Source: a virus | Lineage: Duplodnaviria > Heunggongvirae > Uroviricota > Caudoviricetes | Length of the DNA: 21,912 nucleotides | IMG/VR virus record: IMGVR_UViG_2778261446_000009 | Span: 1-21,912 of that record | Strand: one strand, 5' to 3' | Shown here: piece after piece, positions 4,764 to 4,862 of the stretch | Position numbering within the stretch: position 1 is the stretch's first letter | Layout of the letters: each line of letters begins with the position of its first letter | Notes under the pieces: model-generated | Seen by the model: only the letters and a program-made list of their open reading frames with translations | Databases searched by the model: none | Told to the model about the DNA's origin: nothing | Position numbers and translations under genes: made by a program

Positions 4764-4812
4764 TATGCACTCCTGTTTTTAAAAAACTCATAATCTCACT
4801 TTTTGTAGTTTG

Positions 4813-4841
4813 ATTATTCACTCACACTCAGTATGAGTCAA
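4813..4841 (-). promoter_or_regulatory. Candidate Pant-like promoter (TTGACT-N17-AATAAT on the minus strand) with a 13-bp palindromic operator candidate in the spacer
   Basis: On the minus strand, -35 TTGACT (forward 4836-4841) and -10 AATAAT (forward 4813-4818). Palindrome ACTCAgtaTGAGT at 4826-4838. Further ACTCA half-sites at 4786-4790 and 4820-4824. Confidence 0.35.
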
Positions 4842-4862
4842 TGAATTTTTTATGGTGAACTA

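What the first reader, a model, noticed from the sequence alone, without database searches (positions are those of the whole stretch)
4764..4862. Divergent control region with a 13-bp palindrome and repeated ACTCA half-sites between arc and the CI-like gene
The 99-bp gap between divergent arc (-) and the CI-like gene (+) contains a minus-strand TTGACT-N17-AATAAT promoter candidate with the perfect palindrome ACTCAgtaTGAGT inside it, plus additional ACTCA repeats. This looks like an operator array where Arc, Mnt or the CI-like protein could repress the antirepressor promoter. The motif does not resemble the P22 Omnt or Oarc sequences as I recall them.
Basis: partly seen in the sequence, partly recalled or inferred. 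Interest (0 to 1): 0.45.

Follow-up and report, generated by a model that had tools for sequence, protein, structure and literature searches.

The report
Antirepressor promoter-operator region, P22-like prophage
The 99-bp gap is a real, selectively conserved control region where a strong leftward promoter for an antirepressor operon carries a small palindrome that is probably the landing site of the neighbouring lambda/434-type repressor: an uncharacterised variant of the classic phage P22 "second immunity" switch, not a new kind of system.

Summary
ACTCAgtaTGAGT lies at 4826-4838, further ACTCA copies at 4786 and 4820, and a leftward TTGACT-N17-AATAAT promoter at 4841-4813. The window is the "HS-1 type ant moron" of a P22-like prophage, near-identical to phage JEP4 and E. 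coli HS.

I collected 118 related loci from Enterobacterales. They share one cassette: a CI-like HTH+S24 gene, a gap of about 99 bp, then a divergent 57-aa Arc-family ribbon-helix-helix (RHH) gene followed by antirepressor genes of varying type. The leftward promoter keeps its position in about 20 of 21 intergenic classes. In a diverged sister lineage the gap evolves three times slower than third codon positions next door.

The exact palindrome is clade-specific. Other clades carry different dyads at the same place, and dyad symmetry centred 6 bp from the -35 exceeds shuffles family-wide. The intergenic class follows the CI-like helix-turn-helix, whereas RHH genes are swapped freely.

My best reading (about 0.45) is that the CI-like protein binds the palindrome in Mnt's role, and the RHH binds tandem boxes in the leader in Arc's role. 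The rival (about 0.25) is RHH binding, because 4+5+4 bp matches Arc/CopG operator geometry. The Mnt homolog is an unlikely player. This is a new variant of a known kind.

The parts
4764..4862 (.). 99-bp divergent control region between the RHH gene and the CI-like gene
   Evidence: The length is kept at 95-105 bp in most related loci. It is under purifying selection relative to neighbouring third codon positions.
4836..4841 (-). -35 hexamer TTGACT of the leftward antirepressor-operon promoter (P_ant analogue)
   Evidence: 10/12 match. TTGAC[AT] lies 20-22 bp from the CI-like ATG in 14-15 intergenic classes, with equivalents in the remaining clades.
4813..4818 (-). -10 hexamer AATAAT of the same promoter. 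The predicted start is near 4806, giving a 43-nt leader.
   Evidence: The predicted start site is an inference, not mapped.
4826..4838 (.). 13-bp palindrome ACTCA-gta-TGAGT (read as ACTC-N5-GAGT), at -32 to -20 of the promoter and overlapping the -35 hexamer by 3 bp. Candidate operator, most likely for the CI-like repressor.
   Evidence: Within-clade variants occur only at 4830-4832. Family-wide dyad symmetry is centred at this same position.
4820..4824 (+). Extra ACTCA copy, tandem to the left arm (CACTCA-CACTCA)
4783..4798 (+). Leader boxes AAAACTCATAA-TCTCA: ACTCA at +17 to +21 and TCTCA at +9 to +13 of the predicted transcript, 8 bp apart. Candidate operator for the Arc-family RHH protein.
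   Evidence: A tandem NyTCA-N3-NyTCr pair occurs at this place in nearly all intergenic classes. AAAACTCATA is the only 10-mer shared by the three otherwise unrelated intergenic classes that carry the window's RHH type.
4842..4851 (-). A-tract immediately upstream of the -35 on the minus strand (AAAAAATTCA), UP-element-like. On the plus strand it is the T-rich 5' region of the CI-like gene.
   Evidence: Conserved as AAAAAnTCA-TTGAC across classes. The UP-element function is inferred.
4854..4858 (+). GGTGA Shine-Dalgarno of the CI-like gene (AAGGTG in most relatives)
4863..5504 (+). CI-like repressor, 213 aa. It has an N-terminal domain of the 434-repressor type and a lambda-CI-type S24 C-terminal domain in which Ala129 stands where the catalytic Ser should be.
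   Evidence: Pfam HTH_3 9e-13 and Peptidase_S24 1e-12. PDB hits: 434 repressor 5e-7 and lambda CI 1e-7, with GNSM aligned to GEAM.
4590..4763 (-). 57-aa Arc-family ribbon-helix-helix protein, first gene of the antirepressor operon
   Evidence: phrog_10182. The family profile hits AmrZ, Arc and Mnt structures. 7 of 24 members hit Pfam Arc. Present upstream of the CI-like gene in all 61 distinct loci.
3890..4516 (-). Antirepressor (Bro-N + P22_AR_C domains)
3074..3802 (-). Second antirepressor-type gene (phrog_1726; annotated KilA in JEP4)
2853..3074 (-). 73-aa last gene of the operon, function unknown (phrog_4977)

Best explanation
The region is the promoter-operator region of an immI-type 'second immunity' module of a P22-like prophage, in a variant form. 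A strong leftward sigma-70 promoter (-35 at 4841-4836, -10 at 4818-4813, start near 4806) transcribes a small Arc-family RHH gene followed by two antirepressor genes.

In the lysogen, the divergently encoded lambda/434-type repressor is presumably made from a weak rightward promoter that overlaps the same DNA (candidate TTGATT 4810-4815 / TATGAG 4832-4837). A dimer of it binds the 13-bp dyad ACTC-N5-GAGT over the -35 and spacer, and keeps RNA polymerase off the antirepressor promoter. This is the job Mnt does in P22.

When the promoter does fire, for example on infection of a cell lacking the repressor, the RHH protein accumulates. It shuts the operon down again through the tandem NyTCA boxes in the early transcribed region (4786-4798) and possibly the tandem ACTCA copies in the spacer. 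This is the job Arc does.

The window's repressor has Ala in place of the S24 nucleophile Ser, so it should not be cleaved after DNA damage.

Shown here: the sequence elements, the protein families, the conservation of the cassette and promoter, and selective constraint on the gap. Inferred: the transcription start, who binds where, and the regulatory logic.
For: Architecture and gene content
- The layout matches the annotated epsilon34/P22 immI region. There, Omnt lies between the -10 and the arc start, Oarc lies in the spacer, and the -35 GTCAA is 22 nt from the mnt ATG; here that distance is 21 nt.
- The cassette CI-like | gap of about 99 bp | 57-aa RHH then antirepressor is present in all 61 distinct loci. 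The cargo always carries antirepressor-type domains: Bro-N, P22_AR_N, KilA-N+ANT, ORF6N, pRha+ANT.
- The leftward promoter keeps its position across classes.
- The gap is constrained.

Evidence pointing to the CI-like protein as the binder of the dyad
- The intergenic class follows the CI-like helix-turn-helix. L055 and L047 share residues 21-40 exactly and have 86% identical gaps, although the proteins are 46% identical overall. L055 and L054 are 85% identical overall but differ in the HTH (D/S, Q/K, R/P), and their gaps are unrelated.
- RHH genes are swapped against unrelated gaps. L055 and L069 have RHH proteins 98% identical, yet the gap identity is at the level of unrelated sequence. The window's RHH type occurs with three different spacer sequences.
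- The residue at the start of the recognition helix aligns with 434 Q28. It tracks the box flanking the -35: R with GTGTCAA in all R classes; P/S with T[T/A]GAGTCAA; Q/T/A/K and one of the two H classes with ATGAGTCAA (the other H class, L049, has TTGAGTCAA). R classes do not cluster together in a crude N-terminal-domain tree.
- L049's gap is a mosaic. Its -35 side matches the class with the similar HTH, and its leader boxes match another class.
- Dyad symmetry centred 6 bp left of the T of TCAA exceeds the 99th percentile of shuffle maxima across 15 classes.
- The arms are invariant and the centre is variable within the clade. By established knowledge, 434 operators behave the same way (ACAA-N6-TTGT). 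The window protein keeps Q at the 434 Q28 position and has R at the Q29 position, and the half-site begins with AC as in 434.

Evidence pointing to the RHH protein at the leader boxes
- AAAACTCATA travels with the window's RHH type through three intergenic classes.
Against: - No binding data exist.
- The exact palindrome is absent from two other classes whose recognition helix also starts with Q (L003, L069). Several classes show no clear dyad at all.
- The 13-bp 4+5+4 geometry, the odd length and the position in the spacer over the -35 are exactly those of Arc and CopG operators (PMC2724298), and the RHH is Arc-family.
- The palindrome arms have the same ACTCA sequence as the leader boxes, which is most simply explained by one protein binding all of them.
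- The gap is physically linked to the 5' end of the CI-like gene, so co-inheritance and the residue/base covariation could be partly linkage. R at the helix start co-occurs with D/E/G in helix 2, so it may have a single origin.
- No convincing rightward promoter for the CI-like gene was found. The best candidate -10, TATGAG, lacks the final T.
Confidence: 0.45

Rival explanations
1. P22-like assignment. A tetramer of the Arc-family RHH protein binds the 13-bp palindrome, one dimer on each ACTC/GAGT box, and represses both the antirepressor promoter and the overlapping CI-like promoter. The CI-like protein binds somewhere else in the gap, such as the leader boxes or the A/T palindrome at 4775-4787.
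For: - Arc and CopG operators are two inverted 4-bp boxes 5 bp apart. That makes a 13-bp symmetric element with its axis through a base pair, overlapping the promoter (PMC2724298). ACTC-AGTAT-GAGT has exactly this form.
- The same 4+5+4 form recurs in other classes: ACAC-N5-GTGT in L055, GACA-N5-TGTC in L071, and ATGA-N5-TCAT in clade B and L089.
- The site occupies the Oarc position of P22/epsilon34.
- The RHH is Arc-family, with Arc Q9/N11/R13 aligned to P10/Q12/R14.
- ACTCATA, the right half of the palindrome, is also the motif that accompanies this RHH type in three intergenic classes.
- A sister lineage with RHH changes T16A and K18N also carries A4830G and T4832A.
Against: - Near-identical RHH proteins sit next to unrelated sequences at this position (L055, L069, L054). 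The same base-contact triad (P, Q, R) accompanies ACTC/GAGT in the window, ATGA/TCAT in clade B, and no dyad in L003.
- The box flanking the -35 varies with the CI-like helix, not with the RHH type. Three RHH types each occur with both GTGTCAA and GAGTCAA.
- T16 aligns with Arc P15, which is not a base-contacting residue.
Confidence: 0.25
2. The palindrome as such is not a functional unit. It arises because the conserved -35 flank (TTGACTCA) lies next to one of several direct ACTCA boxes. The working element is the whole array of NyTCA boxes, four direct and one or two inverted, or the longer 19-nt inverted repeat 4780-4798 / 4834-4852. One of the two proteins would coat this array cooperatively.
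For: - A palindrome of this size occurs in 14% of shuffles.
- TGAGTCAA is conserved in most classes whether or not a left arm is present.
- Box arrays with one inverted copy near the -35 are seen in distant relatives, for example three CTTCA copies at 10-bp spacing plus one TGAAG in Providencia phage PSTNGR2lys.
- The 19-nt arms are 79% complementary.
Against: - Family-wide dyad symmetry at exactly this centre exceeds shuffles.
- Within-clade substitutions avoid the arms and hit only the centre.
- Perfect 13-19-bp palindromes of different sequence occur at the same position in L055 and L071.
Confidence: 0.15
3. The Mnt homolog (2581-2838), or a host factor such as LexA, binds the palindrome.
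For: - An Mnt homolog is encoded 2 kb away (Pfam Arc 1e-14).
- By established knowledge, antirepressor genes of several other phages (186, N15, Gifsy) are controlled by host LexA.
Against: - Mnt is missing from most related cassettes. It is divergent from the tailspike gene, as in phages that keep only mnt (PMC2629481, PMC8022706).
- Its predicted contact residues (Q, H, R) differ from P22 Mnt, and no Omnt-like sequence exists in the window.
- The gap contains no LexA box. CTGT at 4773-4776 is followed 8 nt later by AACT, not ACAG (direct reading).
Confidence: 0.04

Closest known systems
Immunity I (immI) region of Salmonella phage P22 / epsilon34: mnt, overlapping Pmnt/Pant, arc, ant
   Same: - Same genomic slot between the gene 16 and gene 9 homologs.
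- A strong promoter reads into a small RHH gene and then an antirepressor gene.
- A repressor gene is transcribed divergently from the same gap of about 90-100 bp.
- The -35 GTCAA is 21-22 nt from the divergent gene's ATG.
- One operator position lies in the promoter spacer and one between the -10 and the RHH start.
   Different: - The divergent repressor is a lambda/434-type HTH+S24 protein, not the RHH tetramer Mnt.
- The RHH is only a remote Arc relative.
- The operator sequences are unrelated.
- There are two antirepressor genes.
- An Mnt homolog survives elsewhere in the moron.
- No sar RNA was recognised.
- If my assignment is right, the positions of the two operators are exchanged relative to P22.
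Phage 434 repressor and its 14-bp operators (ACAA-N6-TTGT)
   Same: - The N-terminal domain is homologous (E 5e-7, residues 8-69 against 3-63).
- Gln is kept at the 434 Q28 and Q17 positions.
- The dyad has conserved outer 4 bp beginning with AC and a variable centre.
   Different: - The dyad is 13 bp, not 14 bp, and is a single site rather than a triple operator.
- Arg replaces Q29 and Ala replaces Q33.
- The C-terminal domain lacks the catalytic Ser.
- It controls an antirepressor operon, not the lytic early promoters.
Arc and CopG 13-bp symmetric operator elements
   Same: Two inverted 4-bp boxes 5 bp apart, overlapping the -35 and spacer of the regulated promoter. The regulated operon begins with the RHH gene itself (PMC2724298).
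   Different: - The boxes are ACTC/GAGT rather than TAGA/TCTA or TGCA.
- The central base pair is T:A, not G:C.
- Comparative data do not tie the box sequence to the RHH type.
SOS-controlled antirepressors (coliphage 186 Tum, N15 AntC, Gifsy GfoA/GfhA, SPC32H Ant), which are repressed by host LexA (established knowledge)
   Same: An antirepressor gene is held off by a LexA-superfamily (HTH + S24) repressor bound at its promoter.
   Different: Here the repressor is phage-encoded and sits next to its target. There is no LexA box, and in the window's clade the protease nucleophile is lost.

Membership tests
P22-type immI region | Lies between the gene 16 (DNA transfer) and gene 9 (tailspike) homologs of a P22-like phage | tested here: met
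   ORF map and JEP4 annotation. The window is 98.7% identical to the E. coli HS prophage, the 'HS-1 ant moron' of PMC2629481.
P22-type immI region | Antirepressor gene downstream of a small RHH (arc) gene in one operon | tested here: met
   Bro-N + P22_AR_C and phrog Ant. The RHH family profile hits Arc, Mnt and AmrZ.
P22-type immI region | Divergent maintenance repressor is Mnt (an RHH tetramer) | tested here: not met
   The divergent gene is HTH_3 + Peptidase_S24. The Mnt homolog lies at 2581-2838 in a different arrangement.
P22-type immI region | Omnt and Oarc operator sequences | tested here: not met
   No match with up to 3 mismatches anywhere in the window. Reference sequences were taken from epsilon34.
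P22-type immI region | Overlapping divergent promoters Pant and Pmnt | tested here: inconclusive
   The Pant-like promoter is clear and conserved. The rightward promoter is only a weak candidate (TTGATT-N16-TATGAG).
P22-type immI region | sar antisense RNA across the arc-ant junction | tested here: inconclusive
   No Rfam hit near threshold. A very stable, terminator-like hairpin on the + strand lies in the junction.
Lambda/434-type CI repressors (HTH_3 + S24 self-cleaving) | N-terminal Cro/C1-type HTH and C-terminal S24 fold | tested here: met
   Pfam. PDB alignments to 434 repressor and lambda CI.
Lambda/434-type CI repressors (HTH_3 + S24 self-cleaving) | Ser-Lys catalytic dyad | tested here: not met
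   Lambda GNS149M aligns with GEA129M. The Lys is present. Most relatives keep GDSM.
Lambda/434-type CI repressors (HTH_3 + S24 self-cleaving) | Binds dyad-symmetric operators overlapping the repressed promoter | not testable with these tools
   Only indirect evidence: dyad position, covariation with the helix-3 residue, and co-inheritance with the HTH.
Arc/MetJ ribbon-helix-helix repressors | Beta-strand, helix, helix of about 45-55 aa, with a basic residue in the strand and (R/K)S at the N-terminus of helix B | tested here: met
   Profile-to-PDB alignments cover strand and helices. R14 and R32 are invariant in 24 diverse members. No structure was predicted.
Arc/CopG-type 13-bp symmetric element | Two inverted 4-bp boxes 5 bp apart overlapping the promoter of the RHH gene's own operon | tested here: met
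   ACTC-AGTAT-GAGT at -32 to -20. The definition is from PMC2724298.
Arc/CopG-type 13-bp symmetric element | Bound by a dimer of RHH dimers | not testable with these tools
   Comparative data argue against sequence-specific coupling to the RHH type.

The most novel reading that the evidence does not exclude
The cassette is an uncharacterised, widespread two-repressor switch of Enterobacterales prophages: a phage-encoded LexA/CI-like repressor, an Arc-like RHH, and interchangeable antirepressor cargo. The two operators sit next to their own genes, so that either half can be exchanged by recombination inside the 99-bp gap. Members that keep the Ser-Lys dyad would act as private, phage-encoded SOS sensors that release an antirepressor. 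The window's clade has lost the nucleophile and turned the switch into an SOS-blind immunity device.
Probability: 0.3. Interest if true: 0.6.

Novelty: new variant of a known kind. Interest (0 to 1): 0.4.

Why it matters
Villafane et al. (2008, PMC2629481) noted that the HS-1 and CUS-3 ant morons seem to lack arc and must control their antirepressors differently from P22. This analysis gives that remark a concrete, testable form:
- HS-1-type morons do encode a remote Arc relative.
- A lambda/434-type repressor stands where Mnt does in P22.
- Promoter and candidate operator positions are now defined.
- A ready-made comparative series exists: about 21 intergenic classes with matched repressor variants.

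Antirepressor modules decide whether co-resident prophages are induced, so knowing their switches matters for prophage cross-talk in E. coli, Salmonella, Klebsiella, Yersinia and Providencia. The variable first residue of the recognition helix and the matching -35-flank variants would also make a compact system for studying how repressor specificity evolves.

Tried and rejected
- **Second copy of the palindrome.** The 14-mer ACTCATACTGAGTG recurs at 12036-12049. I rejected it as a second operator. It lies inside the conserved gene 10, and P22, which lacks the module, has 13 of 14 of the same bases. JEP4 has ACGCA there.
- **P22 operators.** Omnt and Oarc are absent from the window.
- **sar RNA.** Rfam gave only symR at 21.8 bits, E 0.66.
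- **Mantel tests.** I compared gap halves against protein segments. All pairs were significant because the set is dominated by a few clades, so the result is uninformative.
- **RHH-type-specific k-mers.** Only the window's type gave one (AAAACTCATA). The QISYR and PISYR types share nothing beyond the -35.
- **Metagenome scan.** It returned 26 loci and only a handful of new intergenic classes.
- **Isolated phages.** Only JEP4 and, distantly, Providencia phage PSTNGR2lys carry the cassette.
- **Literature.** I found no study of this cassette or of JEP4 regulation.
- **N3 palindrome as a family motif.** Rejected. It occurs only in the window's clade, with a one-mismatch version in L008/L009/L074 and L049.
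- **Structure prediction.** I ran none, because the profile hits to solved RHH, 434 and lambda structures already answered the fold questions.
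Full report
**1. What is there**

The gap between the ATG of a minus-strand 57-codon gene (4763) and the ATG of a plus-strand 213-codon gene (4863) is 99 bp. It contains:
- ACTCAgtaTGAGT at 4826-4838
- ACTCA at 4786 and 4820
- TCTCA at 4794
- a minus-strand TTGACT (4841-4836)-N17-AATAAT (4818-4813), the best sigma-70 match in 3.7 kb

By itself the palindrome is unremarkable: 14% of shuffles of the gap contain one as good. The four-fold recurrence of ACTCA/TGAGT is moderately unusual, reached in 1.4% of shuffles, with Poisson P of about 1e-4 against the window density.

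**2. Context**

The window is the late region of a P22-like (Lederbergvirus) prophage.
- The segment 2400-5950 is 96% identical to Escherichia phage JEP4.
- 4560-5560 is 98.7-99.7% identical to 28 complete E. coli genomes, including strain HS. HS carries the 'HS-1' prophage, whose 'ant moron' Villafane et al. described as lacking arc and therefore controlling its antirepressor differently from P22 (PMC2629481).

Gene order in the window:

| Coordinates | Strand | Gene |
|---|---|---|
| 553-2448 | - | tailspike |
| 2581-2838 | + | Mnt homolog (Pfam Arc 1e-14) |
| 2853-3074 | - | 73-aa gene |
| 3074-3802 | - | antirepressor (phrog_1726) |
| 3890-4516 | - | antirepressor (Bro-N + P22_AR_C) |
| 4590-4763 | - | 57-aa gene |
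| 4764-4862 | . | the gap |
| 4863-5504 | + | HTH_3 + Peptidase_S24 gene |
| 5565-5894 | + | 109-aa membrane/coiled-coil ORF |
| from 5914 | - | gene 16 and gene 20 homologs |

JEP4 has its own C2/Cro/C1 primary immunity region elsewhere, so the CI-like gene here is a second repressor.

**3. The two regulators**

*The 57-aa protein.* On its own it reaches only ParD_like at 8e-4, below the cut-off. A profile of 24 diverse relatives hits the solved RHH repressors AmrZ (8.5e-6), Arc (6e-5 to 3e-3) and Mnt (4e-4). Arc Q9/N11/R13 align with P10/Q12/R14. Seven members hit Pfam Arc directly. It is therefore a remote Arc-family protein, and HS-1-type morons do have an arc analogue.

*The 213-aa protein.* Residues 8-69 align with 434 repressor residues 3-63 (5e-7). 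Q22 corresponds to 434 Q17, Q33 to Q28, R34 to Q29 and A38 to Q33. The C-terminal domain aligns with lambda CI (1e-7). Lambda's catalytic GNS149M aligns with GEA129M, and the Lys is kept. Most relatives have GDSM. The window's protein should therefore not self-cleave.

**4. A conserved cassette**

Using an alignment of CI-like homologs, I collected 92 loci from isolated phages, species-representative genomes and IMG/VR contigs, and 26 more from metagenomes. Hosts include Escherichia/Salmonella, Klebsiella, Yersinia, Providencia, Morganella, Xenorhabdus and Tatumella.
- Every one of the 61 distinct loci has a divergent RHH gene of about 57 codons upstream of the CI-like gene.
- The gap is 95-105 bp in most loci and 86 bp in one clade.
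- The first gene after the RHH gene carries an antirepressor-type domain in nine of the ten loci I sampled among those lacking a hit to the window's Ant: P22_AR_N, Bro-N, KilA-N+ANT, ORF6N or pRha+ANT. One carries a T5orf172 domain first (nine of the ten were scanned with Pfam, and the tenth, L053, was judged Bro-N-type from its sequence).
- An Mnt homolog is present in only 27 of 92 loci, nearly all from the window's own clade. Mnt is a neighbour, not a component.

**5. The promoter is real**

The gaps fall into about 21 sequence classes.
- In 14-15 classes, a minus-strand TTGAC[AT] lies 20-22 bp from the CI-like ATG. It has a 16-18-bp spacer, an acceptable -10 and a predicted 42-46-nt leader.
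- The remaining clades have an equivalent promoter 28-39 bp from the ATG.
- An A-tract directly upstream of the -35 is also conserved.

In a sister lineage (L020/L034/L037), the CI-like gene differs at 21-24 positions, 20-23 of them third codon positions, with a single amino-acid change. The gap differs at only 3-4 of 99 positions, where 9-11 are expected (P about 0.02).

The epsilon34 immI region, read in the same orientation, has the same plan:
- arc start
- Omnt palindrome GGTCCACCGTGGACC
- -10
- Oarc ATAGTAGAGTGCTTCTATCAT in the spacer
- -35 GTCAA
- 22 nt to the mnt ATG

In my reading, Pmnt (TTGAGA-N17-TATCAT) lies on the other strand of the same DNA.

**6. The palindrome in comparison**

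The exact ACTCA-N3-TGAGT occurs only in the window's clade. One-mismatch versions occur in L008/L009/L074 (ATTCA-N3-TGAGT) and L049.

Other classes carry different dyads over the same place:
- ATATGAAT-t-ATTCATAT (clade B)
- TTGACAC-N5-GTGTCAA (L055)
- GACACA-g-TGTGTC (L071)
- ATTGA-g-TCAAT (L054, L062, L079, L049)

Averaged over 15 classes aligned on the -35, dyad symmetry peaks at two centres, 1 bp and 6 bp left of the T of TCAA. Both peaks exceed the 99th percentile of shuffle maxima. The second centre is exactly that of the window's palindrome.

Within the window's clade, the palindrome varies only at 4830-4832 (gta to gca, cta, or A4830G plus gaa). ACTC and GAGT never change.

**7. Who binds it**

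Two readings fit the geometry.

*For the RHH.* Arc and CopG operators are inverted 4-bp boxes 5 bp apart, forming a 13-bp element over the promoter (PMC2724298). ACTC-AGTAT-GAGT is such an element, and it sits at the Oarc position.

*For the CI-like protein.* The comparative record points this way.
- RHH genes are exchanged against unrelated gaps. L055 and L069 have RHH proteins 98% identical, yet the gap identity is at background level. The window's RHH type (81-91% identical, same P/Q/R contact triad) sits beside three unrelated spacer sequences.
- The gap class follows the CI-like HTH rather than the protein as a whole. L055 and L047 share residues 21-40 exactly and have 86% identical gaps, although overall protein identity is 46%. 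L055 and L054 are 85% identical overall but differ in the HTH (D/S, Q/K, R/P) and have unrelated gaps.
- The residue aligned with 434 Q28 tracks the box next to the -35. R goes with GTGTCAA in every R class. P/S goes with T[T/A]GAGTCAA. Q/T/A/K and one of the two H classes go with ATGAGTCAA; the other H class, L049, has TTGAGTCAA. Three RHH types each occur with both the GTGTCAA and GAGTCAA forms. R classes are scattered in a crude tree of the N-terminal domain.
- L049's gap is a mosaic. Its -35 side is 80% identical to the class with the most similar HTH. Its leader boxes are identical to those of another class.
- The only motif that stays with the window's RHH type through three gap classes is AAAACTCATA in the leader, not the spacer.

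Together these favour a modular layout. The CI-like operator is the dyad on the CI-like side of the gap. The RHH operator is the tandem NyTCA-N3-NyTCr boxes at about +9 to +21, which are present in nearly all classes.

Caveats:
- The gap is physically linked to the start of the CI-like gene, so part of the association could be hitch-hiking.
- R at the helix start co-occurs with an acidic residue in helix 2 and may have a single origin.
- Two other Q-type classes (L003, L069) lack the palindrome.
- The arms and the leader boxes share the ACTCA sequence.

I therefore put the CI-like assignment at about 0.45, the RHH assignment at about 0.25, 'the palindrome is incidental to a box array' at about 0.15, and Mnt or a host factor at a few per cent. 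There is no Omnt, Oarc or LexA box (direct reading).

**8. Proposed mechanism** (inferred by analogy with P22, whose regulatory logic is established knowledge)

In the lysogen, the CI-like protein occupies the dyad at -32 to -20 and excludes RNA polymerase from the antirepressor promoter. If its own promoter is the overlapping TTGATT/TATGAG candidate, it would also limit its own synthesis.

Without it, the promoter fires and produces the RHH protein and two antirepressors, which would inactivate the primary C2-type repressor of this or a co-resident prophage. The RHH protein then closes the operon through the leader boxes.

Because Ala replaces the S24 nucleophile, DNA damage should not open this switch in the window's clade. 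Relatives with GDSM might respond to RecA.

**9. Comparison and novelty**

Functionally and positionally this is an immI region. It fails two defining features of the P22 type: Mnt as the divergent repressor, and the Omnt/Oarc sequences. The closest descriptions are 'P22 immI with Mnt replaced by a 434/lambda-type repressor' and 'a phage-encoded counterpart of LexA-controlled antirepressors'.

I found no paper on this cassette. It is a new variant of a known kind, of moderate interest. The mechanism is expected in outline, but the module is widespread and uncharacterised, and it offers a natural series of matched repressor and operator variants.

Noticed in passing
window 5247-5249 (codon 129 of the CI-like gene): The catalytic Ser of the S24 domain (lambda GNS149M) is replaced by Ala (GEAM), while the Lys is kept. 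Close relatives P0002, P0004 and P0005 also lack the Ser. P0003 and most distant relatives keep GDSM. The protein is predicted to be non-cleavable.
   Followed up: partly
window 12036-12049: The 14-mer ACTCATACTGAGTG, the minus-strand reading of the palindrome plus one base, recurs inside gene 10. P22 gene 10 has 13 of 14 of these bases without having the module, and JEP4 has a mismatch. It is probably coincidence.
   Followed up: yes
window 4548-4582, in the 73-nt gap between the RHH stop (4590) and the ant start (4516): A very stable hairpin (-33 kcal/mol for 4517-4600, z = -4.8) is followed on the + strand by ACUAUUUUUAUU. It sits at the place where P22 has the sar antisense RNA. It could terminate a short antisense RNA or act as a structure in the operon mRNA. 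There is no significant Rfam match.
   Followed up: partly
window 4775-4787: A second 13-bp palindrome, GTTTTTaAAAAAC, lies between the leader boxes and the RHH Shine-Dalgarno. Its centre (4781) is the A/G polymorphic site of the clade. T-tract/A-tract pairs occur at this place in several other classes.
   Followed up: no
window 4315-4335: A perfect 8-bp-arm palindrome, AGGTACTCacttcGAGTACCT, lies inside the antirepressor gene. It contains ACTCA and GAGT.
   Followed up: no
window 2449-2846: The Mnt homolog is divergent from the tailspike gene and convergent with the antirepressor operon, and the two share a bidirectional terminator at 2825-2846. TGTACAG occurs twice, at 2533 and 2585, around the mnt start, and might be its own operator. 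The predicted contact residues Q/H/R differ from the H/N/R of P22 Mnt.
   Followed up: no
L001 5437-5508 (phage JEP4, MT740315): The deposited annotation starts the CI-like gene 24 codons downstream of the MNFDD start, which is conserved throughout the family and preceded by a Shine-Dalgarno.
   Followed up: partly
window 4840-4849 and 4862-4871: AATGAATTTT is duplicated 22 bp apart. The second copy contains the CI-like start codon. The first opens a 5-codon ORF (MNFLW).
   Followed up: no
window 5565-5894: A 109-aa ORF with an N-terminal hydrophobic helix and a coiled-coil segment lies downstream of the CI-like gene, in the slot where P22 has sieA. It belongs to phrog_8100 (unknown function) and may be a prophage-expressed exclusion protein.
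   Followed up: no
L002 2192-2281 (Providencia phage PSTNGR2lys): This distant cassette (CI-like 41% identical) has three CTTCA boxes spaced exactly 10 bp apart across the -10 and start region, plus one inverted TGAAG beyond the -35. The plan is the same as in the window, but the box sequence is different.
   Followed up: partly
L101 (metagenome contig Ga0157364_1015573), upstream of 1501: The RHH gene of this cassette has an in-frame TAG at codon 3, while the CI-like gene is intact. It may be a decaying or RHH-independent version.
   Followed up: no
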